Source: a virus. Taken from it: a stretch of 64,000 bases of DNA. Below the pieces are notes generated by a model. The model had not been told where the DNA came from and searched no databases. It saw only the letters and a program-made list of their open reading frames with translations. The position numbers and the translations under genes were made by a program. The stretch spans positions 27,364-91,363 of the IMG/VR virus record IMGVR_UViG_3300031548_000002. One strand, written 5' to 3'. This document shows positions 6,324 through 63,160 of this stretch, piece by piece; the stretch's first letter is position 1, and each line of letters begins with the position of its first letter.

Positions 6324-6333
6324 CTTCACGTGG

Positions 6334-6363
6334 TTGACGGACTGCGCTCTTGTGTGATATAGT
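6334..6363 (+). promoter_or_regulatory. sigma70-type promoter
   Basis: TTGACG-N18-TATAGT. Confidence 0.7.
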
Positions 6364-6405
6364 GGAACCACGCTGAACAACCGGCGAACGACACGAGGAG
6401 TCACG

Positions 6406-43550: not shown

Positions 43551-43777
43551 AGTTCTTGAAGCTTCTCAACAGCAACTACGTCAACACCAGGTACGTCTTC
43601 TCGGCATACGCACTGCCGGGTGTCAGCGGATGGAAGATCGACATTGCCGGCGGTGAGGACGGCACCATTACCATCGGAACGTTGAACACGCCTGAGTTTA
43701 CGACCGAGGCCAAGGCGCAGCAGTTCATCCAGCAAGTGCTCGGCGGCGTGGATCCCGAGCTCTTCATCGACTTGTGA
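43547..43777 (+). CDS. small hypothetical protein
   Basis: Fills the gap between paralogous GT2 genes, overlapping start. Confidence 0.6.
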   Translation: MKFLKLLNSNYVNTRYVFSAYALPGVSGWKIDIAGGEDGTITIGTLNTPEFTTEAKAQQFIQQVLGGVDPELFIDL

Positions 43778-43784
43778 GGTCATA

Positions 43785-48717: not shown

Positions 48718-50385
48718 TCAGATCCAGGACTCCGCCTGCGCGGGACCCTGCGGCTCGACCGCCGGCTCGGCGGAGGGCGCAGCCTCGGCCACCGGCTCGG
48801 TGGCGGCCTCCGGCGCGCCGACCTCCCACATGTGCATGCTGCCGGTGCGCACGCGCCGGATCTGCTGCGTCTTCTGCAGGCGGTGGAGGGAGAGGTAGAC
48901 CTCGCTCTCCTTGAGACCCGTCGCCTCGGCCAGCGCCACCTTGGTGGACGGGCCCTCGACGAGGATCTTCAGCACGGCCTCGTCGCGCGCGATGGTCGCC
49001 TCCGGCCGCGGCCGACCGCGCCGGTTCGCGGCCACCGGAGCGGACTCCGTGGTCGCCTCGGGCGCGCTCTCCACGTTGACGTCCTCCGACACTTTCTTAC
49101 CTCCCTGGTTGGATGTGGTCTTCGTCCTCGAGACTACCTTACCAGACTTGATCACGATCTTGCCGTCGGTCTGCCACGTGCTTGTGCAGTCGATGAGGCT
49201 CTCGCGGTCGCCGACGTCCTGCCCCGCGTAGCCGCCGGGCGAGCCGTCCAGTGCGGCCCTGATCCACCCGCCGATCCATCGGCCGCAGTCCACCGTGATG
49301 CCCTTACCCCACGTCGGCGCGAGGCCACCGCGGGGGATCGGGTCGATCAGCCAGTCGTCGGGGAAGCCCATGATGCGGGCCGTCTCACGGTGCGTGATCG
49401 TCCGGTCGAGCGTTGGGTGGATGACGCAGCCCAGCGCGCCACCGGTGATCACGCGTGACGGGTACTCACCGTCCCAGCGCACGGGCGCCGTGTACCCTTG
49501 GAAGAAGTCGCTGGCGACGAGCTTCGCCTCGTTGTGCTTCCACAGCGGCGGCAGTGAGCCGTGCTCCTCGTAGCAGCGGCGCAGCGCGTTCTGGATCGGC
49601 TCGCGCGGCCGCATACCGGCCCACTCGATGAGTTCCTTGATGCGGTGGTGGAGCGGCGACTCGGTCATCGCGTGGCCGTCCACCGTTAGGGCTGCGACGC
49701 CGTGCTCGCCCGAGTTGCGGCGTGGCCGCGCCCACCACGACACCGGCGCGTCGTCGTACGACTGCGCCTCCCACCGGAGCGGCAGCTCGCGGAGGTCGCC
49801 GATCACCTCATTGAGCGTCGGGTATCGCGTGATGCCCGGGTCCTCGATGCCGAACGGCACGCGCGATGCCAGCCAGAAGTACCGCCGTCGCTGGGACGAG
49901 CCGCCGACCGAGTACGCGTTGTGAAGCACGTGATAGAGGTGGTAGGCGTCACCAGTGAGTTCCTCGAGTCGGGCACGGAGCGCGCGCATGAGCTCACGCC
50001 CCTCGCCCTCCTTCGCCGCCAGCTGGACGGACTCGAAGATCGCGATGACCGGCTTCACCTTGGCGGAGTACTCGGCGAACGCCCACATGCAGTGATTGAT
50101 CGACGAGTCTGCGCCACGGAAGTCACGCGCACTCATCACCGAGAAACCTGAACACGGGGGATTACCGAAAGTTACTACAGGATTACTCAGTGGAACGGAC
50201 CACTCCGACGGATCCACGGCCTCGGTCTGCCAGTCGTCGCCCAGTAGGTGACGGTTGACCTCGCAGTTGGGCGCACCAAAGCCACCCTTCATCTCACGCT
50301 TGCCGACGAGCGTGAAGCCCGCCTGCACCATGCCCAGCGTGAACCCGCCCGCGAATGACTGGCAGTCCACGGCGTTGTACGTCAC
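48718..50385 (-). CDS. DNA (cytosine-5) methyltransferase with C-terminal wHTH
   Basis: FAGGF (motif I), GNPPCSGFS (IV), FESV (VI), QRRRYF (VIII), RTITHRETARIMGFPD (IX). Confidence 0.85.
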   Translation of the reverse strand: MTYNAVDCQSFAGGFTLGMVQAGFTLVGKREMKGGFGAPNCEVNRHLLGDDWQTEAVDPSEWSVPLSNPVVTFGNPPCSGFSVMSARDFRGADSSINHCMWAFAEYSAKVKPVIAIFESVQLAAKEGEGRELMRALRARLEELTGDAYHLYHVLHNAYSVGGSSQRRRYFWLASRVPFGIEDPGITRYPTLNEVIGDLRELPLRWEAQSYDDAPVSWWARPRRNSGEHGVAALTVDGHAMTESPLHHRIKELIEWAGMRPREPIQNALRRCYEEHGSLPPLWKHNEAKLVASDFFQGYTAPVRWDGEYPSRVITGGALGCVIHPTLDRTITHRETARIMGFPDDWLIDPIPRGGLAPTWGKGITVDCGRWIGGWIRAALDGSPGGYAGQDVGDRESLIDCTSTWQTDGKIVIKSGKVVSRTKTTSNQGGKKVSEDVNVESAPEATTESAPVAANRRGRPRPEATIARDEAVLKILVEGPSTKVALAEATGLKESEVYLSLHRLQKTQQIRRVRTGSMHMWEVGAPEAATEPVAEAAPSAEPAVEPQGPAQAESWI

Positions 50386-50433
50386 CTACGCACCTCCCAC
50401 CGCTTGATCACTGAACGTATTCAGCTGATCATA

Positions 50434-50575
50434 CTAGGTGAGAAGCCTGCCGTACGTGTCGAACCAGCGGTTCACGGTGTCGCAGAAGTACTCTCCCGCG
50501 TGCGCGCTAAAGCCGTCGCCGTCGAAGTAGCACTCGGTTTCATCGTCATCCAGGTCGCGCCGACAGTGGGGGGCA
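50434..50575 (-). other. out-of-frame second Zn-ribbon repeat of the upstream pyrophosphatase
   Basis: PHCRRDLDDDETEC...EYFC mirrors CPNCRRALDDDAVMC...EFVC; frames join at a C6 run. Confidence 0.6.
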
Positions 50576-51106
50576 CGTGTTCGTGCTGACGCGCCGGCCG
50601 TCCGCGTAGTAGCACACACCGGAGGGCTGGCAGACGAACTCCGCGGGACCGTCAGCGTACTCGTCCGCCGTGTAGCGCCGGCACATGACGGCGTCGTCGT
50701 CCAGCGCGCGTCGGCAGTTGGGACACTTATTCGTGCCGTCGTATCCGTCGCGCTGCCGCTGCAGGTTCTTGCGGTTCTTCAGCTGGTAGCGCGCGCTCAG
50801 CTCGGTGGCCACCTGCGCGGGTGTCCACCCGGGATGCGCGACGAGCAGCAGGTTCATGACGAAGTGCCAGAGGTCCACGAGCTCGGCGAAGAACGCGTCG
50901 TCGTTGATCGTCGGGTCGCCGCTGGCCCAGGGCTTCCACGACACCTCGTTGAGCGCCTCGTGCAGCTCGTCGGTCGCGGCGAGCACCATGTTTTTGATGA
51001 ACGCGACGCGCGCGGACTGCGAGAGGTTGGTGATGTCGCGGTGGTACGCCTCGCGCTGGAGCCGCTCCTGCGCGGCGAGCATAGCGAGCAGTCGGTCGTC
51101 GGTCAT
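50546..51106 (-). CDS. all-alpha NTP pyrophosphatase (dCTPase/dUTPase-like)
   Basis: DELHEALNEVSWKPW...ELVDLWHF...YQLKNRKNLQRQRDGY. Confidence 0.82.
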   Translation of the reverse strand: MTDDRLLAMLAAQERLQREAYHRDITNLSQSARVAFIKNMVLAATDELHEALNEVSWKPWASGDPTINDDAFFAELVDLWHFVMNLLLVAHPGWTPAQVATELSARYQLKNRKNLQRQRDGYDGTNKCPNCRRALDDDAVMCRRYTADEYADGPAEFVCQPSGVCYYADGRRVSTNTCPPLSARPG

Positions 51107-51107
51107 C

Positions 51108-52229
51108 CTAGTCCTCGTCGTTGTCGTCGGGCACAGCCGCGTCGAACAGCTGCGCCTCGGGGTGATTGCGGTCGATCGCGGCGAGGTCGTCGAGCCACGC
51201 GTCGTACGCGTTGATCGCGAGCGCCGGCACGTAGGGAAGCTTCTCGAGCCTACGCACGAGCGCGCTCACCAGCTCGTCGACGCGCGACGTCCTGGGCAGC
51301 GGCGCGAGCGTCAGGTGGTCGAGCAGGTCGTCCGTGTAGCGGTAGCCGATCAGCTCGAGCTCGAGGTCGCGCACCAGGTCGTGCTCGTTGCGGTCCTGTC
51401 GCACGACGGGGTGGCCGTACTGCAGCCACAGCCCAACGTGCTCCATGATCTCGCCGGCCACGTAGCTCGCCCAGATGTCGTCCATGCGGCCGACGCCCGG
51501 CAGGCACATCAGGGCCGGTGCAAGCGCCGTGCGGTACGCGGTCGCCTGCGAGTTGAACGGCGCGATCGTGCCCCGCAGCAGCGTGACGTTGTCCCAGAGG
51601 ACGCGCTCCACCACGGGCGCGTTCGCGATGCGCTCCACCGCATCCACATCCGGGTCGCCGAGCCATAGTGCGGCGAAGACGCCGATGTGACGAGGACCAC
51701 TGTGAATGTCGTGGCCACTGTGCTGCACGTGATTGATGTGACGTTGCGCCGGCGGAAAGCCACGGTGAACGACCGGCGGGTCGCAGAGCTCACCCGGGTT
51801 GAAGTATCCGGTGTTGGTCCACGTGAACTCACCGCGACTCGGCGTGGTGAGGATCTTGTGAACGCGCGTCAACCAGTCGCCCTCGTGCGCGAGCTCATCG
51901 TCATTGACCGGGTAGTTGTCGTCGTCGATCGTGAGAATGAACTCGGGCTCGTAGGTCAGCGCCTCGAGGATCGCGATGTTGCGCCGCTGGATGCAGTTCC
52001 ACGGAATGACATCGGAGCTCTGCCACCTAGACTGGTCGTCCGGGTGTACGTAGCGAATGTCACGACCGGTGCGCGCGTTCTCCCGCTCGGCCATAACACG
52101 AATCTCAGTGTGGGGTGTCCTTCGATCACCGACGACGATCATGACGTCATCCTCGGACATCTGATCTACCCACGCGCTCATATTCGGCATGGCGTTGATC
52201 GTCGTTGTGATGATGGCGGCGCGGGTCAT
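51108..52229 (-). CDS. GT75/RGP-STELLO-like protein (NDP-sugar mutase or glycosyltransferase)
   Basis: TTTIN, VVGDRRTP, RRNIAIL, IDDDN, RGFP, LWLGDPDVDA, PFNSQ, GRMDDIW, QDRNEHDL. Confidence 0.75.
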   Translation of the reverse strand: MTRAAIITTTINAMPNMSAWVDQMSEDDVMIVVGDRRTPHTEIRVMAERENARTGRDIRYVHPDDQSRWQSSDVIPWNCIQRRNIAILEALTYEPEFILTIDDDNYPVNDDELAHEGDWLTRVHKILTTPSRGEFTWTNTGYFNPGELCDPPVVHRGFPPAQRHINHVQHSGHDIHSGPRHIGVFAALWLGDPDVDAVERIANAPVVERVLWDNVTLLRGTIAPFNSQATAYRTALAPALMCLPGVGRMDDIWASYVAGEIMEHVGLWLQYGHPVVRQDRNEHDLVRDLELELIGYRYTDDLLDHLTLAPLPRTSRVDELVSALVRRLEKLPYVPALAINAYDAWLDDLAAIDRNHPEAQLFDAAVPDDNDED

Positions 52230-53560
52230 CCGTAGAGCCTCTCCTTGATGCGCTGCACGTAGCGCAGCGCGGTGATCTCCTGCTCAAAGTACGCCCGTTG
52301 GACGCTTACCAGCCACTCCCACAGGCCGCGGTCGTTCGAGACCTCGTGCAGCTTGCGCTGGAAGTCGCCGGGGTGCTTGACCCGCAGCCACTCTTGCGCG
52401 ACCGCGGGGAGCCCGCCGAGAATGTGGTTCTGGTCGTCGTACAGCGGGTGGAAGAAGCAGACCGTGCCGGCGGCGAACGCCTCCCACGGCTTGGTCGTCG
52501 CGAAGCCCGAGCCGCTGGACGGCGTCGTCAGCGTGCACTTGACGCTGTGGAGTCGCGGGTAGTACTCATTCCACGGCGCGGGCTCGATGTCGACACCCAG
52601 CTCCTCTTGGGATTTCTTCGACCACGTGCCGTGGATGAAGTGAGGCTTCACGGGAAGCGCATAGTCGCGCAGCGCGTTGACGCGCTTCGTGGCGTCGGAG
52701 ACGTACGTGCGCGCCTCGTTGATGAAGAGTCCGAACTTGCCGGGCCGGTCGAAGTCCTGGTCGTACGAGACGAGGTCGCCGAACGGCGTGCCCGGCATGA
52801 GCGCGTTGATCTCGAGGCGCGAGTACCCGCACGCGACGGTGGACTCCCACAGCGTGTGGCCGTACTTCTCCACGGCGTGAGCTTCCGCCATGAGCTCCCA
52901 CTGCGGGTCGACCTTGAGCTCGCGACCGGCGCGCTCGTGACGGATGGTGTGCTTGTAGTTGCGCTGGGTCAGCACGGGGTTGAGAAGTGGCCACGCGAGG
53001 TCGCGCATCTTCAGGTAGTTGCGCGAGTCCGCGTTCAGCCAGACCTCCTCGCGCGTGTACGGGTCGACGTCGCGCCAGCGGTTCACCGCGTTTAGGAAGT
53101 AGCTGCAGTACGCCACGGAGAAGTCTTGCGGCCGAGTCAGCTTGCCACTGGACTTCTTTGTGATCCCCGGCGTGGGCCGGTTGGTCGTCCCGTGCTGGCC
53201 GATCCAGCCGACGATGCCGCCCGCTTGGTCCACCACGTCGCGCGTAAGCGCGTCGGTGAACTCGACGATCGCGAGCTGCTGGTCCACCGTGAAGTTGCCG
53301 GTGAACTCCTTGCGCTTCAGGAACGAGCGCAGCTCGTCGCGCCAGCCGTACTCCGTCCACGGGTTGACGACGTTGCCGGGCAGCTCGGCCTCGGCGGCCG
53401 TCTCGCCGGAGTTGCGGCCGAACAGCATGAACGTGTCGTCGGGGTGACGCTCCGCCAGCGCCTTGACGACGGGCACGCACTCGACGTCGCCGCCGAGCGT
53501 GCCGCACTTGTCAAGAGTGAGCGGCATTGATCTTCCGAGCTTTCCGTACAGAATGATCAT
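52226..53560 (-). CDS. GT-B DNA glycosyltransferase, T4 beta-glucosyltransferase-like
   Basis: C-terminal TTKPWEAFAAGTVCFFHPLYDDQNHI...LVSVQ resembles the BGT C-terminal TLRVWETMA region as recalled; context among DNA-modification genes. Confidence 0.68.
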   Translation of the reverse strand: MIILYGKLGRSMPLTLDKCGTLGGDVECVPVVKALAERHPDDTFMLFGRNSGETAAEAELPGNVVNPWTEYGWRDELRSFLKRKEFTGNFTVDQQLAIVEFTDALTRDVVDQAGGIVGWIGQHGTTNRPTPGITKKSSGKLTRPQDFSVAYCSYFLNAVNRWRDVDPYTREEVWLNADSRNYLKMRDLAWPLLNPVLTQRNYKHTIRHERAGRELKVDPQWELMAEAHAVEKYGHTLWESTVACGYSRLEINALMPGTPFGDLVSYDQDFDRPGKFGLFINEARTYVSDATKRVNALRDYALPVKPHFIHGTWSKKSQEELGVDIEPAPWNEYYPRLHSVKCTLTTPSSGSGFATTKPWEAFAAGTVCFFHPLYDDQNHILGGLPAVAQEWLRVKHPGDFQRKLHEVSNDRGLWEWLVSVQRAYFEQEITALRYVQRIKERLYG

Positions 53561-53590
53561 CTGACCTCATCAGTGTCGTGTCCGGGTGAA

Positions 53591-53642
53591 CGCCGGCGAC
53601 CCGGGACGTGGTCAACGTACCAGGACGCCGGCGCTTGATCAA
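53591..53642 (-). promoter_or_regulatory. hairpin with embedded promoter for the modification operon
   Basis: IR 53591-53633; TTGATC-N17-TACGTT (53642-53614). Confidence 0.5.
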
Positions 53643-53654
53643 GTCACCCTGAGC

Positions 53655-54197
53655 TTAGAAGGGGGACGGCGGGGGTGGAACCGCCGAGCCGCCGCCCGCG
53701 GCCGGCTTGGGAACGTCCGCGGCAGGCGTCGGAATGCCCGCAGACGGGCTCGGGACGCCGGCCGCGGTCGGACCAACGGCGCCCGGAACCGGGAGGCCTA
53801 CGTTGCCCGCGAGCGGCGCCTCGACCTTCTCGACGTTCTCGCGGTCGACGCCCTGCCACTCGCGCACGCCGACGGTGAACCGGCAGCGCTTGCCTTGCAG
53901 CGCGGCGGCGACCTGCTCCGGCGCGGGGTTCTGGTCGAAGTACGGGCCGTCGAGTCCGAAGGCCTTCATGTTGCCGAAGAACATGCGGAGCGCCGCCGGG
54001 CTGTCGACCGAGATCACGAACTGCGTGAAGAAGGTCTTGCCGTGGTGCTTGCCACCCTCGACCTGCAGCTTAACGCGGATCATCGGCTTGCCGTTGGAGG
54101 ACTGGTCGAGCTTCGACTCGGCCACGAGGCCGTCGAAGGTGCCGGTCACGAGCGTGGTCGCGTCCTTGTACAGGTCGCCGAAGTTGAACGATGTCAC
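53655..54197 (-). CDS. DUF669-like ssDNA-binding protein
   Basis: SSNGKPMI..., Pro-rich tail ending PF; follows AAA gene. Confidence 0.75.
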   Translation of the reverse strand: MTSFNFGDLYKDATTLVTGTFDGLVAESKLDQSSNGKPMIRVKLQVEGGKHHGKTFFTQFVISVDSPAALRMFFGNMKAFGLDGPYFDQNPAPEQVAAALQGKRCRFTVGVREWQGVDRENVEKVEAPLAGNVGLPVPGAVGPTAAGVPSPSAGIPTPAADVPKPAAGGGSAVPPPPSPF

Positions 54198-55021
54198 TTG
54201 TCAGAGCCCTTCGTCGCGCTGGGTTCGGTGTCGCCGGTGGGGTGGGGGAAGATGGTGTTCACGATGGTGGTGATGTCGGGTTGGTTGACGGTGAGACCGA
54301 GAACGCCCTGCACCCGCTCGCCCGCCTCGAACGTCGGGTTCGGCCCGACGAGAAGCTTGCGGACGGGCACCGTGGGCTGGCCGTGTTCATCGAGCTCGCT
54401 GTCCACATACAGGTACCCTACTACGTCCATCCAGTAGGGGAGCGAGGTGCCGATCTGGCCCTGCATGAAGGGTCGCCAGCGCCCCATGTGCTCCTTCGTC
54501 TCGGCGAGGAACACCGCGACACGGACGTTGTTGGGAAGCAGCACCAGGTCGCGGAAGCCGCGGATCAGCTTGTCCATCTCCGTGAGGAGACGTCCCCAGT
54601 CCTGGATCTGCATCTGGCCGTCGCTCTTAATGTTCTCCTTGCACCGCCGCTGCGCCTCGGTGATGGAGTCCATGACGAGCGACCGGAAGTCGTGGGGCGT
54701 CGTCAGCAGCCACTCGTAGACGCGCCGCAGCGTGCCCCAGCTGTTGACGGTGACGATGCACGCGTCCCACGCGCCGTCGTGACGCGGCGGCGGGCCCGCG
54801 TTCGGATCCCAGAAGATCTTGCGCAGTGGCCGGCCGGACTGGAAGCCCGCCTCACGAATGAAGCGCCAGCCGCCCTCCGCGTCGAGCACCAGCACCGGCG
54901 GGGGCGCGGTGCTGGACAGCGTGGACTTGCCGATCTTACTCGGTGCGTGGATGAGGATGGACAGCGTCGCCTCATCCAAAATGGTCACAGTCGAAGACTG
55001 TGCGCCACTAGTTGAAGACAC
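54194..55021 (-). CDS. AAA_24 / Sak4-like recombinase ATPase
   Basis: APSKIGKST, LDAEGG, VMDSITE, DVVGYL. Confidence 0.8.
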   Translation of the reverse strand: MSSTSGAQSSTVTILDEATLSILIHAPSKIGKSTLSSTAPPPVLVLDAEGGWRFIREAGFQSGRPLRKIFWDPNAGPPPRHDGAWDACIVTVNSWGTLRRVYEWLLTTPHDFRSLVMDSITEAQRRCKENIKSDGQMQIQDWGRLLTEMDKLIRGFRDLVLLPNNVRVAVFLAETKEHMGRWRPFMQGQIGTSLPYWMDVVGYLYVDSELDEHGQPTVPVRKLLVGPNPTFEAGERVQGVLGLTVNQPDITTIVNTIFPHPTGDTEPSATKGSDK

Positions 55022-55454
55022 TCACACACTCCTTGCAGCAGCGCTGGTAGATCTTACCCTCGAGCGGCACGTCTCCGAAGGGACGCACCTCGTACACCTG
55101 TTCGGCCTTCGCGAAGCGCTTATCGCAGCGCTCACATCGACCACCACCCTGGCCGACGAAGCTGTGCATCACGAGGTCCGCATGCTGACCACGACGTAGG
55201 TCATCGATCAACTCTTGCGCGTTCGTGCACTCTGCGTGCACGTACCGAGACCACCCGGGTCGGTTCTCGAAGTGGGCTTTCTCGTACATCTGGCCGACGT
55301 CGAGGTCACCACCACACGCGACGCAGAGCGTCTTTGTCTCGGCGACACCCACCCAGCCCGAGCGTACGAGCTCACCCAAGATTTGACGGTCTTGCGCCAG
55401 CTGCGCCATAATCAAAGCGCGCTGGAACGCGCTTCGCAGGTGGTTCGTTCCCAA
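55008..55454 (-). CDS. Zn-finger hypothetical protein
   Basis: CVAC..HAEC and CERC..CKEC; start uncertain. Confidence 0.55.
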   Translation of the reverse strand: MGTNHLRSAFQRALIMAQLAQDRQILGELVRSGWVGVAETKTLCVACGGDLDVGQMYEKAHFENRPGWSRYVHAECTNAQELIDDLRRGQHADLVMHSFVGQGGGRCERCDKRFAKAEQVYEVRPFGDVPLEGKIYQRCCKECVSVFN

Positions 55455-55455
55455 T

Positions 55456-56457: not shown

Positions 56458-56466
56458 ACAGCCTCC

Positions 56467-58332
56467 TCAGATGACGGATGCCATGATCATGGTCTCTTCG
56501 TTGTCGAGCTCGAGCGTGCTGAGCCCGGCCTTGCGCAGCGTCTCCTTGTCGCGCACGATCTCTTCGAGCCGCTCGAGCTTCTCGTAGAGCTTAGGCAGCT
56601 GGTGCGTCTCCTCGATGGTCTCTTCGGCGATGATGTCGATGATGTTGATCGACGAGTGGATCTCCGACCCGATGCGGTGAACGCGGTCCTCCGCCTGCTT
56701 GTTCTCGATCATCGACCACGACCGCTGCATGAAGATGATCGTGCTGGCCGCCGTCATCGTCAGGCCGGTGCCACCCGCGGCGATCGTGAAGAGCATGACG
56801 CGCTTCTTACCCTCCTGGAACTGTTGGAGCTGGTGATCGCGCTCGGCCTCGGTCACCTTGCCGGTGATGATGCCGTACGAGATCTTCTCCTTCTCCAGGC
56901 GCTGGGCCGTCAGCTCGATGAGCTGGCGTGATGCGGCGCAGACCGCCACCTGCTTGTCGGGATCGAGGTCGCCGAGGATGCTGATGACCTCATCGATCTT
57001 GGGGGACGGGTCCTTCAGTCGGACCTGCCACGTGCGCGGGTCTTCGGGATCGCCCTTGATGATCTCGGCGTACGACGACGACAGCTGCAGCAGCCGACCG
57101 TGCGCGGTGAGGTTGTTCGCCGCGACGAGCAGCGTGCCGTCGTCGAGGCGCGTCAGCAGCCGACCGGCAAGCTCATCGTACGCCTTGCGCTGCTTGCTGG
57201 TCAGCTGCACGAAGCGTTGGGTTCGGATCTTCGGCGGCAGGTGCCGCAGGATGAGGTCCTTCGGCATGCGCCGGAAGATCGGGTCGAGGATCGCGAAGAA
57301 CTCATCGCGGGTCGCGGGGTTGAGCCCGACGATCTCCATGCCGCCGAATGAGTTCCACGACTGCAGCGCGTAGCGCGCGATGAACTTGGACTTGGTGGGG
57401 AAGTCCAGTGGTCGAACGCCGTGCGCGATCGACCACAGGTCACCGGGGTGCTTGGCGATGGGAGTGCCGGTCGCAGCCCAGTTGGTGGTGACCGTCGGCT
57501 GGTGCGCCACCGCCCACCACGCGCGCGTCTGCTTGGACTTTGGGTCCTTAGCGCGGTGCACCTCATCGAAGATCACGGTCTTGAACGGGATGCGGTTGAA
57601 CTCGCGCACGTGCGTCTCACACTGCGTCGCGGTGACCGTCTCGCCACCGCTCACCGGGTCGCACTCGCGACACTTACGCAGCGCCACCGACGGGTAGGGC
57701 GCGAGCCGCGTGAACTGGCGCAGCGACTCGATGTTCACGATGAAGACGGCGGTCGGGTCGTCGACGGCGGACGCGATGATCTTGCGCCGCTGGGCCATGG
57801 ACCCCTCGAGAACGTAGGGCGTCGCGCCAGTGCACCACTTAGACAGCTCGCGTCGCCACGGACGCTTTGTCGAGTTGGGACAGATGACGACGGCGGGAAG
57901 CACGTCCTTCTCGTCCATGATCAGGTTGTTGAGCATCATGGACAACTGCACAGTTTTTCCTGAGCCCATGTCGTCGCACAAGAGTCCAGACCCTGCGACG
58001 TCCAGCCACTTAACGCCCGCCCGCTGGAACGGGTAGAGCCGAACGTCACCCTCACCCTCGGGAAGCTCTGTCACCTCACGAAGATCGAGTGATGGGTCAA
58101 TGCGCGTCGTGCGCTCATGCCACGCCCAGTTGTGGAGGGACTGGTCGACGGTGAGTCGGTCGCCAAAGATCCCGCGCATCGTCACGCACGACGCCCACGC
58201 GAGCGGCAGCTCCCAGCGGGTCGCCGCTGCGTTCCAGCGTGAGCCCGGAACGGACTTGATCAACTCCTTCTCACGGTACTCGGTGTACACGGCGATGCGA
58301 TCGCCCTCGGGGGTCAGAGCTGCTGTGGCCAC
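56467..58332 (-). CDS. SNF2-family helicase
   Basis: DDMGSGKT, DEVH, TGTP, QAEDRVHRIG. Confidence 0.9.
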   Translation of the reverse strand: MATAALTPEGDRIAVYTEYREKELIKSVPGSRWNAAATRWELPLAWASCVTMRGIFGDRLTVDQSLHNWAWHERTTRIDPSLDLREVTELPEGEGDVRLYPFQRAGVKWLDVAGSGLLCDDMGSGKTVQLSMMLNNLIMDEKDVLPAVVICPNSTKRPWRRELSKWCTGATPYVLEGSMAQRRKIIASAVDDPTAVFIVNIESLRQFTRLAPYPSVALRKCRECDPVSGGETVTATQCETHVREFNRIPFKTVIFDEVHRAKDPKSKQTRAWWAVAHQPTVTTNWAATGTPIAKHPGDLWSIAHGVRPLDFPTKSKFIARYALQSWNSFGGMEIVGLNPATRDEFFAILDPIFRRMPKDLILRHLPPKIRTQRFVQLTSKQRKAYDELAGRLLTRLDDGTLLVAANNLTAHGRLLQLSSSYAEIIKGDPEDPRTWQVRLKDPSPKIDEVISILGDLDPDKQVAVCAASRQLIELTAQRLEKEKISYGIITGKVTEAERDHQLQQFQEGKKRVMLFTIAAGGTGLTMTAASTIIFMQRSWSMIENKQAEDRVHRIGSEIHSSINIIDIIAEETIEETHQLPKLYEKLERLEEIVRDKETLRKAGLSTLELDNEETMIMASVI

Positions 58333-58378
58333 TAGATTCCCCTCATCGTTGGTCGTTGATCTCTAATCGCTTAGCTAC

Positions 58379-58822
58379 CTAGATTATATCAGGCGTGACA
58401 TTCTGATGAACCCACGCGGGGTGGTGATCGACCACCGCCTTAAAGACCTGCGCGGCCGCGTCGTTCATGTGACGGCCGGCGCGCCCCGTCTTCCACCAGC
58501 CCAGCGCGCGCAGGAGATCGGGCCGCGCGAGCCTCTTCGCGTCCGACATATTCTGATACACGAGCGTGTGGTGTCCCGTGCGCTCGACGAGGTTCTGAAT
58601 GACGCCCGACACCTTGAGCGCGTCGGGCTGCTGCGTCTTCTTACCCGTGTGAACGGTGATCACAAAGCGCTCCACCGCGACGATCGTAGACACGTCGGAT
58701 GATAGCCACGACCACAGCATCGGCTCGACCTCGCCGAACGTCGCGGTGACCTGGTAGAGCCGGTCACGACGCAGCAGCGCGAGACCCGTCGTCGTGCCGG
58801 GGTCGCAGCCGATCACCCGCAC
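58379..58822 (-). CDS. RuvC-like Holliday junction resolvase
   Basis: VIGCDPGTTTG, VERF, HMNDA. Confidence 0.75.
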   Translation of the reverse strand: MRVIGCDPGTTTGLALLRRDRLYQVTATFGEVEPMLWSWLSSDVSTIVAVERFVITVHTGKKTQQPDALKVSGVIQNLVERTGHHTLVYQNMSDAKRLARPDLLRALGWWKTGRAGRHMNDAAAQVFKAVVDHHPAWVHQNVTPDII

Positions 58823-58826
58823 GTAG

Positions 58827-60632
58827 TCAAGCGGCGGCACGAAGCGACTCCCGCCACAGACTCGCGTTCCAGTCGGACTTCTCACCCCACCGCTGGCCGA
58901 ACGAGACCGACGCCGACACGGGCACGGGCGCGAGGACGTCAGCGTCGTTCATCACGCGCTCCAGCGTGTGGACCGCGTCGACCACGTGCTCGTTCGGAAC
59001 GTCCAGCACGACCTCATCGTGCACGAGCATGGTGAGCCACTGGCCCAGGCCGGCGGCGTCAACCTCGAGGACCTTCATCTTGAACAGCTCGGCGGCGAGT
59101 CCTTGGATGAGGTAGTTCACCAGGGCGTACTCCTTGTTGCGGTCGCCCACGTGCTTGCGACCGGTGAGCGGCGAGCGCACGTACGCCTCACCCTCCTGGT
59201 GGCGCCGCGTCATGACGAGGCTGTTAACGTCGCGGATGAACTTGGGAATGCCCGGGTACGTGACGTCCACGAGCTCCATGAAGATCTTAGCCTCCGCCTC
59301 GGGAATGCCCGCGGTGAGCGCGAACTTCGCGATGCCCGAGCCGTACGACTTCGCGTACATGGAGTTCTTCGTGAGCTGGCGGCGCGAGTCGCTCTTCGCC
59401 ATCGACTCGAGGTCGTACAGCTGGCACGCCATGCTGGTGAAGAAGTCCGCGTCCGAGAGGAACGCGGCGAGCATGGCCTCATCCCGCGACAGGTACGCGA
59501 GGATGCGCATCTCGATCTGGTCGAAGTCGCACATCAGCAGTGTGTGACCGGGCCGTGCGGAGATGCAGTTGCGAACGGTGATCGCCGCGCGGTTCTTCTC
59601 GCTGCGCCGGGGTAGCGTCTGCAGCGCGGGCCGCTGGACGGACATGCGGCCGGTGCGCGCGCCGATCGAGTTGATCGAGCAGTGGATGAGGTCGGCCGCG
59701 TCGCGCTCGTCGATGAAGTGACGCAGGTACGTCTGTGATAGCTTCTGGAGCTGCCGCCGCAGCAGCACCGTCTGCGCCAGTGGGTGGTCGATCCCGGCGA
59801 GGACCTCCTTGTCGAGGGCGGGCGCGCCGGACGCGGTCCGCTTCGTCCACTCATAGCCCTCGTCGTTGAGCGCCTTTACGACACCCTGGTTCGACCCGGC
59901 GGAGATCCCGTACTGATCCTTCACCCACTTGCCCGACTCGGCCACGTGGTCGTCGAACTTACGGAGCGCCGTCGCGGTGTACTCTGCGTCCACGTGAATA
60001 CCGTAGCGCTCGATGTCACTGGTGACCCACGACGTCGCGAGCTCGAGGTCGTACGCCTTCGGACACTCGGCCTGCACGCGCGGGTAGATCGCGTCCTTCA
60101 CGCCCTTGGTGAGCACCGGGTCCAGTGCGGCGTACACCCAGTAGGGCTGGAAGGTGACGGGTATCTTATCCCAACCGTACACCTTGATGGCGTCGTCAAG
60201 CTCCTTCTGCGCCGCGCCCGCGCGCGGGTCGACGTAGCGCGCGGCGAGGTTCTTCAGCGCGGTGGAGTACGTCGACTCGAGCGGATGGTGCATGGGCCGC
60301 GTGTCGTGGATCTTACTTCGCGGCGGCGGCTCGATGCCGCTGTTACGCAGCATGGCATCATCGAACGGCCAGTTCGCGCCGACGTACGTTCCGTCGAACT
60401 TGGCGAAGACCTCCTTGATGACGCCCTTCCAGTCGTCCACGGGAATCGTCCAGCCGTGACGCAGGTCGCCGAACTGGACGGTTCGCACGACGTCGGTCTG
60501 CTTGTTCAGCCCGGTGGACTCGGTGTCGCAGCCGATCTCGTTGTCGGGACGCCACTCGCCCAGCCAGCGCATGAACTCGGCGACCGCATCGGTCGAGTCG
60601 ACGAGGTGAACCTGGACGTCATCGAGACTCAA
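58827..60632 (-). CDS. polA: DNA polymerase family A (3'-5' exo + pol)
   Basis: DTESTG, RTGRMS, DFDQIEMR, KNSMYAKSYG, NYLIQG, VHDE. Confidence 0.93.
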   Translation of the reverse strand: MSLDDVQVHLVDSTDAVAEFMRWLGEWRPDNEIGCDTESTGLNKQTDVVRTVQFGDLRHGWTIPVDDWKGVIKEVFAKFDGTYVGANWPFDDAMLRNSGIEPPPRSKIHDTRPMHHPLESTYSTALKNLAARYVDPRAGAAQKELDDAIKVYGWDKIPVTFQPYWVYAALDPVLTKGVKDAIYPRVQAECPKAYDLELATSWVTSDIERYGIHVDAEYTATALRKFDDHVAESGKWVKDQYGISAGSNQGVVKALNDEGYEWTKRTASGAPALDKEVLAGIDHPLAQTVLLRRQLQKLSQTYLRHFIDERDAADLIHCSINSIGARTGRMSVQRPALQTLPRRSEKNRAAITVRNCISARPGHTLLMCDFDQIEMRILAYLSRDEAMLAAFLSDADFFTSMACQLYDLESMAKSDSRRQLTKNSMYAKSYGSGIAKFALTAGIPEAEAKIFMELVDVTYPGIPKFIRDVNSLVMTRRHQEGEAYVRSPLTGRKHVGDRNKEYALVNYLIQGLAAELFKMKVLEVDAAGLGQWLTMLVHDEVVLDVPNEHVVDAVHTLERVMNDADVLAPVPVSASVSFGQRWGEKSDWNASLWRESLRAAA

Positions 60633-60879
60633 TGAACGCTCCTATGATCTCGTGCGTAAGTTCTATGATCAATTCGCGGCGCCACGTCGCTGTGCGCGCA
60701 TCGAATGATCCAGGACGCATCGGTGTCACGACCGCCCCGTAGCGCGCGAAGTCAAAGTGCTCGACAGCATCCGTAACGAGTGCGTGGATCTCAGCGGCAT
60801 CCGGAAAGTACGGTATGTACTCGGGATCGTCCACGTGCTCACGGTCACACTCATACGTGCAGCACGTGTCACAGCACAT
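60619..60879 (-). CDS. hypothetical protein
   Basis: GAGG RBS, fills the gap. Confidence 0.5.
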   Translation of the reverse strand: MCCDTCCTYECDREHVDDPEYIPYFPDAAEIHALVTDAVEHFDFARYGAVVTPMRPGSFDARTATWRRELIIELTHEIIGAFIESR

Positions 60880-61390
60880 CTCGGACCTCTACCTCGATGT
60901 CGCAGCGCTCAAGGAACGCATAGCCCGATGACGAGTCGCGGTGCGCGTGCTCGTGTCGCGGCTGGACGACCGCACGTGTGAGTCCAGAGTTCGCGATGAG
61001 CTTAGCGCAGCTCAGGCAGACGTGACTCGTCACGTAGATCGTACCACCCTCGCGAACCGTCCGCTCGCAGACCATCAGCGAGTTGGCCTCGGCGTGTAGG
61101 CTCGGACAGTCGGAGTAGTCCGCCGCGAGACCGCGCCGCTGATCCGGCATGCCTGCCCCGAGTACCGGTCGTGCGGCGTCCGCGACCATGGCACGCGGAC
61201 ACCACTCGGTACATCGTTGGCCGTTGTGCGTGAAGCCCTCAGGCGGTCCGTTGTACCCTGTGGCAACGATGCGGTTGCGCTGGTCCACGATGACCGCACC
61301 GACGCGGTCGCGCGAGCAGAGTGAGCGGCACGCGACGGCGGACGCGACGAGCAGCCAGGTGTCATCCCACGACGTTCGGACGTCAGTCAC
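60869..61390 (-). CDS. dCMP deaminase family protein
   Basis: RSLC..VGAVIV, TGYNG, HAEAN, CLSCAKLI; start moved to GTG overlapping the upstream stop. Confidence 0.88.
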   Translation of the reverse strand: MTDVRTSWDDTWLLVASAVACRSLCSRDRVGAVIVDQRNRIVATGYNGPPEGFTHNGQRCTEWCPRAMVADAARPVLGAGMPDQRRGLAADYSDCPSLHAEANSLMVCERTVREGGTIYVTSHVCLSCAKLIANSGLTRAVVQPRHEHAHRDSSSGYAFLERCDIEVEVRDVL

Positions 61391-62210
61391 GCCGGCTGCC
61401 GGTGAGGGCGTTCCGGAACCAATGCTCGCCGGGGAGGTAGTGCCCGTCGACGTAGGGAAGTCGCCGGCAGCGCTGCTTGGCCAGAAGAGCCGAGTCACCG
61501 TTGCGCGCCAGTCCTCCGGGGAATGAGTCATCTTCCACGACCTCCGGTCGCTTGTGAAGTGTCTTGATCTTGTCTATGTCGCGCTCGTACAGGTGGAGCG
61601 ACAGCGTCGTGTGCCGGTACGCGCCGACGTCGCGGCCGATGAGCGTGGCCACCGTCAGCTGCAGCGTCGTGAACTGGAAGAAGTCATACGGGATGCCCAG
61701 CCAGACGTCGCTGGACCGCATGACGACGTCGACGGCCAGGTGGCCCGCGTCGTCGACCGAGAACCCGATGCTCAGCGTGCACGGGTAGTCGTGCTTGAAC
61801 GGAACGTTGTCGAGCTCGGGTTTCCACAGCTGGATCACCGCCTGTCGCGTCGCGGGATCGCGCTTGAGCTTGGCCACGACGTCCAGCAGCTGGTATCCGA
61901 TGCGGTCGCCGTACGCGCCCCAGAACCGGCCGTCAGCCTCCCTGTACGGGTCGAATGACGGCGGTAGTAGATCCGGGTCAGAGAACCCGCCAACGAGCTG
62001 GACGGCCTCCGCTGCGGCCACGCGCCGACTGAGACCGCGACCGGTGCCCAGTGGAAACGCGCGTCGCGGGTTCTCCACCTCGATCACCGTCAAGCCGAGG
62101 TCGCGCGTCGCCTCGCCACGCGGCGCGCGCTTGACCCCGGAGTCGTGAACCAGCTCCACCAGGCGGCGGTACCCGCTGGGCCCGTCCTCCATGTACACTA
62201 CGGTCGCCAC
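61383..62210 (-). CDS. thymidylate synthase homolog, probably dCMP-modifying (hydroxymethylase-type)
   Basis: GAYG.R, TRQA, DYPCT, MRSSDVWLGIPYD (Asp where dUMP enzymes have Asn), SLHLYERD. Confidence 0.82.
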   Translation of the reverse strand: MATVVYMEDGPSGYRRLVELVHDSGVKRAPRGEATRDLGLTVIEVENPRRAFPLGTGRGLSRRVAAAEAVQLVGGFSDPDLLPPSFDPYREADGRFWGAYGDRIGYQLLDVVAKLKRDPATRQAVIQLWKPELDNVPFKHDYPCTLSIGFSVDDAGHLAVDVVMRSSDVWLGIPYDFFQFTTLQLTVATLIGRDVGAYRHTTLSLHLYERDIDKIKTLHKRPEVVEDDSFPGGLARNGDSALLAKQRCRRLPYVDGHYLPGEHWFRNALTGSRRD

Positions 62211-63160
62211 TTGCGCAGGTCCCTTCCGGTCTGAAGCGCGTCGACGATCGCGTCGCCGTACGCCGCGTGATGCGAGTGGTGAAAGCGGCGCACGTACTGC
62301 GGGTGAGGCACGGCGCCGACGGGATGCGAGCCAAGAAGACCGGCGCACGCTTCGCGCGCGTTGGCACCCAACGTCACAACGCTGCTTGGCTGGACGACGC
62401 CTAGGACCCGGGGCAGCGAGTCGACGTCACAGCCGTTCACGATGCCAACGCGCAGTCCATCGAGGCGATGGAGCCGCGCCAGCAGCGCGCGGCCGAGGTA
62501 CGCGCCCGACGTGGACGGGTAGGGCATGAATGCCGTGCCCAAAGGGTGGCGACTGCCGGGGCCACGCACGTCGCCAACGAGCAGCGCGTCGACCGCGGGC
62601 GGTCCGATGTACGTGACGAAGTCGTTGAGGATGCGCGCGGGGCTCTCGGCGCGCGTCCCCTCGGCCACGACGTATTCGACGAGGTCCGGTGTGTCGAGGC
62701 GTACCATGACGCTGCGCAGATCGGACGTCGCGCGCACGGCGGCGAAGAGGTTCTGCGTCGTCGTGAGCTCAGACTCGGGGATCACAAACTCACCGCGGTC
62801 ACGAAAGACGTCCTGGATCTCCAAGTGGTCGCGCCAGAGGTGTACGCCCAGCGCGCCGCGCGACCGGAGGAACAGCTCGGTGTACCGAAAGACGGCGTCA
62901 TCCATGAGCGACTCGCGGTTCTTCACGCGCGGATACACCCGCTCGCCCCAGTGCCAGCGGTCACAGATGATGTGGTGGTTGCGCCCGGGCCGGTAGCCCA
63001 GCAGCGGAACCACGTACTCGTCCAGTGGGTGCTGGGTGGGCCGGCCCCGGTGCCAGACCTCCACGGTGTCGTCGGGTCGGTGCTTGGCCAGGTACTCGGA
63101 GATGCGCTGGATCAGCGTCGTCTTACCGACGCCGTCCGCTCCGTCACAGAGAATAAGCAC
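62198..63160 (-). CDS. dNMP kinase fused to uracil-DNA-glycosylase-like domain
   Basis: DGADGVGKTT...CDRWHWGE kinase; LLVGD.RG...F...SGAYL...N...VTLG..A...HPQ UDG-like. Confidence 0.75.
   Translation of the reverse strand: MLILCDGADGVGKTTLIQRISEYLAKHRPDDTVEVWHRGRPTQHPLDEYVVPLLGYRPGRNHHIICDRWHWGERVYPRVKNRESLMDDAVFRYTELFLRSRGALGVHLWRDHLEIQDVFRDRGEFVIPESELTTTQNLFAAVRATSDLRSVMVRLDTPDLVEYVVAEGTRAESPARILNDFVTYIGPPAVDALLVGDVRGPGSRHPLGTAFMPYPSTSGAYLGRALLARLHRLDGLRVGIVNGCDVDSLPRVLGVVQPSSVVTLGANAREACAGLLGSHPVGAVPHPQYVRRFHHSHHAAYGDAIVDALQTGRDLRKWRP

What the first reader, a model, noticed from the sequence alone, without database searches (positions are those of the whole stretch)
48718..63160. T4-style cytosine hypermodification pathway in an actinophage, with a GT75/RGP-type enzyme suggesting an unusual sugar on DNA
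Seen: a TS homolog with GIPYD (Asp at the position that is Asn in dUMP-specific TS and Asp in T4 dCMP hydroxymethylase), an adjacent dNMP kinase, dCMP deaminase and own PolA. A separate operon holds a BGT-like GT-B enzyme, an RGP/STELLO-like protein, a dCTPase/dUTPase-like pyrophosphatase and a C5-MTase. Known: T4 uses gp42, gp1, gp56 and BGT to make glucosyl-hmC, and plant GT75/RGP proteins interconvert UDP-Ara pyranose and furanose. Inference: the phage makes 5-hm-dC (or 5-OH-dC), removes dCTP, and adds a furanose sugar or a disaccharide, by a route different from T4. That would protect against restriction and CRISPR and could be a new DNA base.
Basis: partly seen in the sequence, partly recalled or inferred. 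Interest (0 to 1): 0.88.

Follow-up and report, generated by a model that had tools for sequence, protein, structure and literature searches.

The report
Phage genes for sugar-coated hydroxymethylcytosine DNA
An uncultured high-GC soil phage carries T4-style genes that most likely replace cytosine in its DNA with hydroxymethylcytosine and cap it with an unusual five-membered-ring sugar (probably L-galactofuranose); this would be a new sugar variant of a known anti-restriction trick, and no chemistry has been done.

Summary

The module is conserved in 71 related IMG/VR loci. The slot beside the transferase is a variable nucleotide-sugar cassette. Rearranged versions occur in distant phages, including cultured Pseudoalteromonas phage vB_Psh_XG4.

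Unexplained: an intact C5-methyltransferase that always travels with the module, and a UDG-like domain fused to the kinase.

The general kind is published (ThyS-linked BGT-like DNA glycosyltransferases). I found no paper that places a GT75 mutase in a phage DNA pathway. This scan has already reported the same cassette in at least eight other genomes. Verdict: a new variant of a known kind, chemically untested.

The parts
62198..63160 (-). Two-domain protein. The N-terminal part is a P-loop dNMP/thymidylate-kinase-like domain, the presumed hm-dCMP kinase. The C-terminal part (about 62201-62647) is a UDG-superfamily-like domain of unknown role.
   Evidence: A profile of 15 homologs matches SPbeta YorR (2axp) at E 2.7e-14 and thymidylate kinases. 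PF02223 hits 13 of 15 members, best E 2.4e-7. The C-terminal domain rests on weak evidence: Pfam UDG at 7.7e-5 in 1 of 15 members and 2.4e-4 in the L070 homolog; family-4 UDG chains at E 0.06; and an Atlas lead of 0.88 to viral clusters carrying PF03167.
61383..62192 (-). Thymidylate-synthase homolog of the T4 gp42 type, a predicted dCMP hydroxymethylase that makes 5-hm-dCMP.
   Evidence: PF00303, E 4e-22. Aligned with T4 gp42, Asp stands at the E. coli L143 and N177 positions, the catalytic Cys is kept and D169 is kept. The same D/C/D/D pattern occurs in all 115 related loci. The diagnostic residues come from PMC13326640.
60869..61531 (-). dCMP deaminase, the counterpart of T4 Cd. These are the longest-ORF coordinates; the true start probably lies near 61380.
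   Evidence: PF00383, E 9e-16. phrog_174 dCMP deaminase, E 9e-36. Syntenic in 39 of 71 related loci.
58827..60632 (-). Family A DNA polymerase. It is context only: the enzyme that would have to incorporate hm-dCTP.
   Evidence: PF00476, E 2.7e-61.
52226..53560 (-). p444, a GT-B glycosyltransferase structurally nearest to T4 DNA beta-glucosyltransferase. It is the predicted DNA (5hmC) glycosyltransferase.
51108..52229 (-). GT75 NDP-pyranose mutase, MtdL-like. It is predicted to turn an NDP-pyranose into an NDP-furanose, most likely GDP-L-galactopyranose into GDP-L-galactofuranose. Its start overlaps the p444 stop by 4 nt.
50546..51106 (-). All-alpha NTP pyrophosphatase related to T4 gp56 dCTPase/dUTPase, with a Cys-rich C-terminal tail. 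It is predicted to deplete dCTP and/or dUTP.
   Evidence: PF08761, 44.7 bits. phrog_18650, E 6e-30. hhalign of a 27-member family against T4 gp56: probability 98.7%, E 3.9e-16, 112 columns. Campylobacter dimeric dUTPase 1w2y, E 2e-12.
48718..50385 (-). C5 cytosine DNA methyltransferase with a C-terminal winged-helix-like extension. It is a conserved member of the module; its role alongside hmC is unexplained.
   Evidence: PF00145, E 4e-17, with a weak TrmB match at residues 472-513. Motifs I, IV (PPC), VI (E), VIII (QRRR) and IX (RE..R..GFPD) can be read in the translation. Present in 56 of 71 related loci, and next to TS and p444 in L062 and in phage XG4.
684..1811 (+). dTDP-glucose 4,6-dehydratase-like SDR. 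It is a possible further sugar-nucleotide enzyme, and its link to the DNA pathway is uncertain. The better-linked GDP-mannose 3,5-epimerase lies outside the window, at genome positions 19036-20007.
   Evidence: TIGR01181, 197.7 bits, below the cut-off. PDB dTDP-glucose 4,6-dehydratases, E 6e-38. The epimerase in the same genome is 50% identical to the SDR that sits beside the GT75 gene in L024, and matches GDP-mannose 3,5-epimerase structures at E 3.6e-90 against 1.8e-26 for the next SDR.

Best explanation
The module is a T4-type pre-replicative cytosine hypermodification system with a different sugar.

All steps are inferred from sequence and fold:
1. The gp56-like pyrophosphatase lowers dCTP/dUTP and yields dCMP.
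2. The gp42-type TS homolog converts dCMP to 5-hydroxymethyl-dCMP.
3. The P-loop kinase, together with host NDP kinase, raises it to hm-dCTP.
4. The phage PolA incorporates hm-dCTP.
5. The dCMP deaminase balances the dTTP supply, as T4 Cd does.
6. After replication, the BGT-like GT-B enzyme p444 transfers a sugar to the hydroxymethyl group in DNA.

The donor would be made by a GDP-mannose 3,5-epimerase (encoded elsewhere in the genome; it sits next to the mutase gene in some relatives) and the MtdL-like GT75 mutase. The route is GDP-D-mannose to GDP-L-galactopyranose to GDP-L-galactofuranose. The predicted base is 5-(L-galactofuranosyloxymethyl)cytosine, which would block restriction enzymes and other nucleases.

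Confidence by layer:
- hmC plus some sugar on DNA: about 0.75.
- The sugar is a furanose made by the GT75 enzyme: about 0.55.
- The sugar is L-galactofuranose: about 0.4.
For: TS signature: D/C/D/D at E. coli L143/C146/D169/N177, identical to T4 gp42. The published meaning of each position is in PMC13326640. The nearest cultured-phage TS homologs include ones annotated 'pyrimidine hmase' and SPO1 gp29.

Pyrophosphatase: related to gp56 at hhalign probability 98.7%.

Epimerase: a GDP-mannose 3,5-epimerase ortholog is in the same genome. Its orthologs lie directly beside the GT75 gene and p444 in L024, L050, L051, L060 and L061.

Gene context:
- p444, the GT75 gene and the NTP-PPase gene are translationally coupled.
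- Synteny holds in 71 loci.
- The slot beside p444 swaps between GT75 alone, GT75 plus an SDR, and NTP_transferase with or without APH and SIS. All of these are nucleotide-sugar supply genes.
- TS(D), kinase, p444 and a sugar nucleotidyltransferase recur in a different order in L062, L070 and L071, and in cultured phage XG4.
- p444 is nested within the TS(D) phages; some TS(D) phages lack it. That is the pattern expected if the transferase needs hmC.

Literature: BGT-like GT-B DNA glycosyltransferases linked to ThyS, epimerases and APH are known (bioRxiv 10.1101/2023.12.21.572611).
Against: - No chemistry exists, and the phage is uncultured.
- An intact C5-MTase is a fixed member of the module. 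It would have no substrate if every C were hmC.
- p444 matches no BGT sequence family. The equivalent of the catalytic Asp100 could not be mapped residue by residue.
- The GT75 enzyme lacks two residues that are essential in MtdL: the Mn ligand H287 is Gln, and D87 is Ile. Activity or substrate may therefore differ.
- In this genome the epimerase lies about 60 kb from the mutase.
- An earlier scan note reports a separate glycosyltransferase/methyltransferase cluster at 41720-45412. It could be the real user of the furanose donor.
- In cyanophage S-T4 a GT75 homolog sits in a fucosyltransferase/heptose cluster with no sign of DNA modification.
- The dCTP-versus-dUTP preference of the pyrophosphatase cannot be read from sequence.
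Confidence: 0.62

Rival explanations
1. The phage makes hmC, plain or glucosylated from a host UDP-sugar. The GT75 mutase and the epimerase instead supply a furanose donor for another target, such as virion proteins or a host envelope polymer.
For: An earlier scan note reports a separate GT-A/GT-B/methyltransferase cluster at 41720-45412, and the genome also has an RmlB-like dehydratase. In cyanophage S-T4 the GT75 homolog lies among fucosyltransferases and heptose enzymes, not DNA genes. In this genome the epimerase is far from the replication module.
Against: The GT75 gene overlaps the p444 stop codon and abuts the gp56-like gene inside the replication module. It keeps that position in 43 of 71 loci. 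In loci that lack it, other nucleotide-sugar genes fill the same slot. In relatives the epimerase sits in that same slot.
Confidence: 0.13
2. The product base is a uracil derivative. hm-dCMP is deaminated by the phage deaminase to hm-dUMP, 5hmU enters the DNA and p444 glycosylates it in a base-J-like manner. Cytosines remain canonical and are methylated at motifs by the C5-MTase.
For: This would give the C5-MTase a substrate. The dCMP deaminase lies directly downstream of the TS homolog in 39 loci. The nearest cultured-phage TS homologs include dUMP hydroxymethylases such as SPO1 gp29 and PW916.
Against: Known 5hmU phages use Asn177-type dUMP hydroxymethylases, whereas this clade invariably has Asp (PMC13326640). 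I found no phage route through hm-dCMP deamination in the papers read. T4 itself pairs gp42 with a dCMP deaminase without making hmU. No dTTP-removing function is evident.
Confidence: 0.07
3. The TS homolog is a flavin-dependent 5-hydroxy-dCMP synthase, as in RB69, DLP3 and RL38JI, and the sugar is ether-linked directly to C5-OH.
For: N177D and L143D/E are shared with the 5hodCMP synthases. Furanose sugars (Araf, and predicted Galf) are known on 5hoC (PMC13326640).
Against: The diagnostic D169N change is absent. Asp is kept in the window protein and in all 115 related loci.
Confidence: 0.04
4. The TS homolog is an ordinary thymidylate synthase or a dCMP methylase. The glycosyltransferase and the mutase are unrelated to DNA.
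For: The Pfam and PHROG labels say 'thymidylate synthase'. A dCMP methylase together with a C5-MTase would simply give 5mC DNA.
Against: Asp at N177 disfavours dUMP. Asp at L143 marks non-methyl products. The conserved linkage with the BGT-like enzyme and the gp56-like enzyme across distant phages is hard to explain otherwise.
Confidence: 0.05

Closest known systems
Phage T4 glucosyl-hydroxymethylcytosine pathway (gp56 dCTPase/dUTPase, gp42 dCMP hydroxymethylase, gp1 dNMP kinase, Cd dCMP deaminase, beta-glucosyltransferase)
   Same: The enzyme roles are the same. The TS homolog has the gp42 active-site signature. The pyrophosphatase is homologous to gp56. The transferase is structurally nearest to BGT. 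A dCMP deaminase is present.
   Different: The kinase is TMPK/YorR-like and fused to a UDG-like domain. The transferase belongs to a separate, unnamed sequence family of about 445 aa. The donor is probably a GDP-furanose made by phage enzymes instead of host UDP-glucose. A C5-MTase is part of the module. The host is probably a high-GC Gram-positive bacterium.
ThyS-associated GT-B DNA glycosyltransferase gene clusters in metaviromes (bioRxiv 10.1101/2023.12.21.572611)
   Same: These are BGT-like GT-B enzymes next to a thymidylate-synthase homolog, dCMP deaminase, methyltransferases, epimerases and APH or nucleotidyltransferase genes. The heptose cassette of their contig 53 resembles the NTP_transferase/APH/SIS cassettes of relatives found here.
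   Different: That paper does not mention a pyranose-furanose mutase. I did not test whether their HMMs capture the p444 family.
Glycosylated 5-hydroxycytosine systems of RB69, DLP3 and RL38JI (PMC13326640)
   Same: A TS-homolog-initiated cytosine modification, followed by DNA glycosyltransferases and phage-encoded NDP-sugar synthesis that yields furanose sugars (Araf, and predicted Galf).
   Different: Those systems use D169N 5hodCMP synthases and an ether link to C5-OH. Their furanose comes from arabinose-5-P isomerase routes or an FAD-dependent UDP-galactopyranose mutase. Here D169 is kept, and the mutase is the metal-dependent GT75 type.
MtdL / Hyg20 GT75 NDP-pyranose mutases of actinomycete antibiotic pathways (A201A, hygromycin A; PMC9937993)
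   Different: The phage context and a presumed DNA acceptor. The Mn ligand H287 is Gln, D87 is Ile and N42 is Arg/Lys, so the metal and sugar specificity may differ.

Membership tests
gp42-type dCMP hydroxymethylase (thymidylate synthase superfamily) | TS fold and sequence family PF00303 | tested here: met
   E 4.2e-22, 79 bits against a 24.3 cut-off. PDB TS and MilA CMP hydroxymethylase, E 1e-14 to 3e-15.
gp42-type dCMP hydroxymethylase (thymidylate synthase superfamily) | Catalytic Cys (E. coli C146), Asp at N177 (dCMP specificity) and an acidic residue at L143 (non-methyl product) | tested here: met
   DYPC and RSSDVWLGIPYD align column for column with T4 gp42. The pattern is D/C/D/D in 115 of 115 related loci. 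The meaning of the positions comes from PMC13326640.
gp42-type dCMP hydroxymethylase (thymidylate synthase superfamily) | Makes 5-hm-dCMP from dCMP and methylene-THF | not testable with these tools
   An enzymatic assay or heterologous expression with LC-MS is needed.
5-hydroxy-dCMP synthase (RB69 gp48 type) | Asn at E. coli D169 (D169N) | tested here: not met
   Asp is retained in the window protein and in all 115 loci. The criterion is from PMC13326640.
T4 DNA beta-glucosyltransferase (BGT, GT63) | GT-B fold with BGT as the nearest structure | tested here: met
T4 DNA beta-glucosyltransferase (BGT, GT63) | Sequence-family membership | tested here: not met
   No Pfam or PHROG family at E<=0.01. 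hhalign against BGT gives only a 66-column C-terminal match, probability 40%.
T4 DNA beta-glucosyltransferase (BGT, GT63) | Catalytic Asp100 and donor ligands R191/R195/R269/E272 | tested here: inconclusive
   K357/E360 align with R269/E272. An invariant NAD178xRN motif after a beta-strand resembles BGT's FTD100IR. No residue-level structural alignment was available, and global hhalign failed.
T4 DNA beta-glucosyltransferase (BGT, GT63) | Transfers sugar to 5hmC in duplex DNA | not testable with these tools
   Inferred only from fold and gene context.
GT75 NDP-pyranose mutase (MtdL/Hyg20/plant RGP-UAM) | GT75 fold and sequence family | tested here: met
GT75 NDP-pyranose mutase (MtdL/Hyg20/plant RGP-UAM) | DXD motif, catalytic/autoglycosylated Arg (MtdL R159), and D195, Q229, R257, D260 | tested here: met
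   Window residues D102-D104, R156, D194, Q228, R248 and D251 are invariant or nearly so in 35 sequences. Their roles are described in PMC9937993.
GT75 NDP-pyranose mutase (MtdL/Hyg20/plant RGP-UAM) | Mn2+-coordinating His287 and sugar-binding Asp87 of MtdL | tested here: not met
   H287 aligns with a near-invariant Gln278, and D87 with Ile80. Active plant RGPs have Ser at the D87 position. Only the His loss is therefore unusual.
T4 gp56 dCTPase/dUTPase (all-alpha dimeric dUTPase family) | Sequence homology to gp56 and PF08761 | tested here: met
   hhalign probability 98.7%, E 3.9e-16. PF08761, 44.7 bits against a 22.9 cut-off.
T4 gp56 dCTPase/dUTPase (all-alpha dimeric dUTPase family) | Hydrolyses dCTP/dCDP | not testable with these tools
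   Substrate preference cannot be read from sequence.
C5 cytosine DNA methyltransferase | PF00145 with motif IV Pro-Cys and motifs I, VI, VIII and IX | tested here: met
   63 bits against a 22 cut-off. The motifs can be read in the translation.
GDP-mannose 3,5-epimerase (gene outside the window, genome 19036-20007) | Close sequence similarity to solved GME enzymes, well above other SDRs | tested here: met
   E 3.6e-90 to 8sg0 and 2c59, against 1.8e-26 for the next SDR. 50% identical to the SDR adjacent to the GT75 gene in L024.

The most novel reading that the evidence does not exclude
The module may do more than swap the T4 sugar. Its fixed C5-methyltransferase and the kinase-UDG-like fusion could be functional parts of a two-layer system. 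In one version the DNA carries both L-galactofuranosyl-hmC and motif-specific 5mC. In another, the UDG-like domain acts as a glycosylase, or as a base-flipping module, that discriminates unmodified cytosine DNA from the phage's own modified DNA. L-galactofuranose attached to a nucleobase would itself be a DNA modification not yet described.
Probability: 0.15. Interest if true: 0.78.

Novelty: new variant of a known kind. Interest (0 to 1): 0.58.

Why it matters
If the chemistry is as predicted, this large clade of uncultured phages would carry a DNA base not yet described: an L-furanosyl-hydroxymethylcytosine. The p444 family has at least 662 protein clusters. The gp42-type TS clade has about 500 IMG/VR loci.

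The donor would be made by an enzyme pair (GDP-mannose 3,5-epimerase and a GT75 mutase) so far known from plant cell-wall and actinomycete antibiotic pathways. That would widen the known sugar diversity on phage DNA. It would also provide new DNA glycosyltransferases for epigenetic tools, and it would help explain resistance of such phages to restriction and CRISPR.

The interchangeable sugar-supply cassette beside one conserved transferase is a natural experiment in donor specificity. The related module in cultured Pseudoalteromonas phage vB_Psh_XG4 offers a direct experimental handle, including on the unexplained C5-methyltransferase.

Tried and rejected
- Megablast of the 12.8-kb region against 50,697 phage records: no match.
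- tblastn of p444 against the phage records: nothing at 1e-5. At E<=1 a single distant hit appeared, phage XG4.
- TET/JBP (PF12851): absent from the 100%-complete genome. The C5-MTase plus TET post-replicative route is therefore rejected.
- NTP_transferase (PF00483): absent from this genome.
- Global hhalign of p444 against T4 BGT, intended to map Asp100, gave no alignment.
- The 405-aa gene that fills the p444 slot in a freshwater sister clade shows no detectable homology to p444 (hhalign probability 0.6). It has no Pfam hit either.
- The second SDR subgroup found beside the GT75 gene in some relatives could not be assigned: GME, Fcl and MoeE5 all score near E 1e-15.
- The PNAS 2017 A201A paper is not held. 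The MtdM-MtdL pairing is therefore cited from my own memory only.
- The UDP-arabinose reading was considered and set aside. MtdL is much closer than plant UAM, and a GME ortholog is present in the genome.
- The 5-hydroxycytosine reading was rejected on the D169 criterion.

Full report
**Setting.** The window is the last 64 kb of a 91,363-bp IMG/VR virus record that CheckV rates as complete. GC content is about 65%. From about 45.9 kb to 63.2 kb all plausible genes run on the minus strand. Megablast finds no close relative among 50,697 deposited phage genomes.

**Observation.**
- C5-MTase, 48718-50385.
- dUTPase_2-type pyrophosphatase, 50546-51106.
- RGP/STELLO-like protein, 51108-52229.
- A 444-aa protein with no family, 52226-53560.
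- SSB, AAA_24, PD-(D/E)XK, SNF2 and PolA, 53655-60632.
- dCMP deaminase, 60869-61531.
- TS homolog, 61383-62348.
- P-loop kinase, 62198-63160.

The GIPYD motif is present. The TS gene most likely starts at the ATG at 62192. The genes for p444, the GT75 protein and the pyrophosphatase overlap or abut by 4 nt and 1 nt, so they look translationally coupled.

**The TS homolog.** A 2026 NAR paper (PMC13326640) gives three diagnostic positions in E. coli numbering.
- N177: Asn means dUMP, Asp means dCMP.
- L143: a hydrophobic residue means a methyl product; Asp or Glu means a non-methyl product.
- D169: Asn marks the flavin-dependent 5-hydroxy-dCMP synthases.

The window protein reads D, C (catalytic Cys146), D, D at positions 143, 146, 169 and 177. 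It aligns column for column with T4 gp42. All 115 related loci I collected have the same four residues. This supports a dCMP hydroxymethylase and argues against dTMP synthesis, dCMP methylation and 5-hydroxycytosine. The nearest homologs in cultured phages (38% identity or less) include ones annotated 'pyrimidine hmase' and SPO1 gp29.

**The pyrophosphatase.** A 27-member family alignment matches T4 gp56 dCTPase/dUTPase with hhalign probability 98.7% and E 3.9e-16. It also matches the Campylobacter dimeric dUTPase at E 2e-12. Substrate preference cannot be read from sequence.

**The kinase.** The N-terminal half matches SPbeta YorR and thymidylate kinases. PF02223 hits 13 of 15 members. The C-terminal 145 residues form a separate conserved domain with invariant G-D-x-R, P-A-F-x-P, S-G-x-x-L, N-A-C and P-H-P-Q-x-x-R-R-F motifs. 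Weak but mutually consistent signals place this domain in the uracil-DNA-glycosylase superfamily. Its role is unknown.

**p444.**
- The family has at least 662 clusters at about 50% identity, none named.
- An AlphaFold2 model built on 44 sequences has pLDDT 89.6.
- Among predicted viral structures, a protein named 'DNA beta-glucosyltransferase' matches with TM 0.73.
- hhalign recovers only the C-terminal donor-binding motif: K357/E360 against BGT R269/E272.
- I could not map Asp100.

**The RGP-like protein.**
- A profile of 35 homologs hits MtdL at E 6.5e-61 and rice UDP-arabinopyranose mutase at 3.7e-7.
- MtdL is the GT75 GDP-L-galactopyranose/GDP-L-fucopyranose mutase of antibiotic A201A biosynthesis (PMC9937993).
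- Of the residues shown there to be essential, the phage family keeps the DXD motif, R159, D195, S228, Q229, R257, D260, R289 and H292, and also the GDP-type Thr13.
- It replaces the Mn ligand H287 with Gln, and D87 with Ile.

It is therefore a GT75 member with a somewhat altered active site.

**The sugar.** In related phages the GT75 gene is often flanked by an SDR. One subgroup of these SDRs has a 50%-identical ortholog in this same genome, at 19036-20007 and so outside the window. That ortholog matches GDP-mannose 3,5-epimerase structures at E 3.6e-90, against 1.8e-26 for the next SDR. GME makes GDP-L-galactose from GDP-mannose (PMC8787198, PMC6678494), and MtdL-type mutases turn that into GDP-L-galactofuranose. 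The most economical prediction is therefore GDP-D-Man to GDP-L-Galp to GDP-L-Galf, followed by transfer by p444. This is an inference. The changed mutase residues, a second SDR subgroup of unclear type and an RmlB-like dehydratase at 684-1811 leave other 6-deoxy or L-sugars open.

**Comparative context.**
- 71 IMG/VR loci encode p444 relatives. The whole replication and nucleotide module is syntenic in them.
- Wherever the flank reaches, the gp42-type TS, the gp56-like enzyme and usually the C5-MTase are present.
- The slot next to p444 is variable. It holds GT75 alone (the window and L002), GT75 plus an SDR, or, where GT75 is absent, sugar-1-phosphate nucleotidyltransferases with or without an APH-like kinase and a SIS isomerase. 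All of these are nucleotide-sugar supply genes, which fits p444 being a sugar transferase whose donor varies between phages.
- Three distant loci keep the TS(D) homolog and p444 in a different gene order, with other module members alongside. L062 adds a TMPK-like kinase, a nucleotidyltransferase, a C5-MTase and a MazG/PRA-PH pyrophosphatase. L070 adds a P-loop protein with a UDG-like domain. L071 adds a P-loop protein and a nucleotidyltransferase.
- Cultured Pseudoalteromonas phage vB_Psh_XG4 has, within 7.5 kb: a gp42-like TS (D/C/D/D), a nucleotidyltransferase/APH fusion, a p444 homolog, a second GT-B-like protein, a C5-MTase and a gp56-like protein.
- Conversely, TS(D) phages without p444 exist. 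L090 is one. A freshwater clade has unrelated 405-aa and 339-aa genes in the slot. The transferase is thus nested within hmC-type phages, as expected if it depends on hmC.

**Open problems.**
- The C5-MTase looks catalytically intact and there is no TET/JBP oxygenase in the genome. The MTase is therefore not feeding a post-replicative hmC route, and it would be idle on fully substituted DNA. Partial substitution, another DNA target or another chemistry remain possible.
- In cyanophage S-T4 a GT75 homolog sits in a non-DNA glycan cluster.
- An earlier scan note reports a separate glycosyltransferase cluster in this phage at 41720-45412. A non-DNA target for the furanose therefore cannot be excluded.

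**Comparison with the literature.** ThyS-linked, BGT-like GT-B DNA glycosyltransferases with neighbouring epimerase, APH, methyltransferase and deaminase genes have been catalogued across IMG/VR (bioRxiv 10.1101/2023.12.21.572611). Furanose sugars on phage cytosine are known on 5-hydroxycytosine (PMC13326640). My full-text searches found no report of a GT75 mutase, or of GME, in a phage DNA pathway.

Earlier follow-ups in this scan reached the same reading on at least eight other genomes. I arrived at the GME/MtdL/L-Galf reading before seeing those notes.

**Verdict.** This is a new variant of a known kind. It is moderately interesting, is not unique to this window, and rests entirely on sequence and fold inference.

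Noticed in passing
window 62201-62647 (-): The C-terminal half of the kinase is a conserved UDG-superfamily-like domain with motifs GDxR, PAFxP, SGxxL, NAC and PHPQxxRRF. The kinase-UDG fusion sits directly upstream of the gp42-type TS, and it does so even in the distant phage L070. Its function is unknown; it could be a base-flipping or glycosylase module.
   Followed up: partly
window 48718-50385 (-); L062:6757-8010; L156 (PP712099.1):5363-6580: An intact C5 cytosine methyltransferase co-travels with the dCMP hydroxymethylase, the BGT-like transferase and the gp56-like pyrophosphatase in soil phages, in a rearranged distant locus and in cultured Pseudoalteromonas phage vB_Psh_XG4. This is chemically puzzling if all cytosines are hmC.
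   Followed up: partly
L026:11323-12884, L022:11349-13412, L057:11281-13370, L017:8629-9864, L066:11254-12750: In relatives that lack the GT75 gene, the slot beside p444 holds nucleotidyltransferases, an APH-like kinase, a SIS isomerase and a 282-aa protein with no family. These look like alternative nucleotide-sugar pathways, possibly heptose-type, feeding the same transferase family.
   Followed up: partly
L112:18020-20253 (and the similar loci L098-L152): A sister clade, apparently from freshwater samples, has the same kinase-TS(D)-deaminase-PolA-...-SSB-...-gp56-like synteny. In place of p444 and the GT75 gene it carries two genes (405 aa and 339 aa) with no Pfam family and no detectable similarity to p444. 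These may be a different hmC-tailoring system.
   Followed up: partly
window 50546-50740 (-), residues about 124-186 of the pyrophosphatase: The gp56-like pyrophosphatase has a Cys-rich C-terminal tail (CPNCRR...C...C...C), conserved as 'KCPxCxRALDD' in the family consensus. It resembles a small zinc ribbon, which T4 gp56 lacks.
   Followed up: no
L155 (Synechococcus phage S-T4, MH412654.1) 5920-6828: One of only six phage records with a GT75 homolog. There it is annotated 'putative membrane protein' and lies among fucosyltransferases, heptose enzymes and an epimerase. Phage GT75 mutases are therefore not restricted to DNA pathways.
   Followed up: partly
window 49960-50385 region downstream; MTase residues about 430-555 (window about 48718-49100): The C5-MTase has a low-complexity linker and a C-terminal winged-helix-like segment (weak TrmB match, residues 472-513). 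Ordinary C5-MTases lack these.
   Followed up: no
genome G000:C1:19036-20007 (outside the window, L153:1495-2484): A GDP-mannose 3,5-epimerase ortholog is encoded about 60 kb from the mutase in this phage. In several relatives the orthologous gene lies directly beside the GT75 gene and p444, so the gene has moved.
   Followed up: yes
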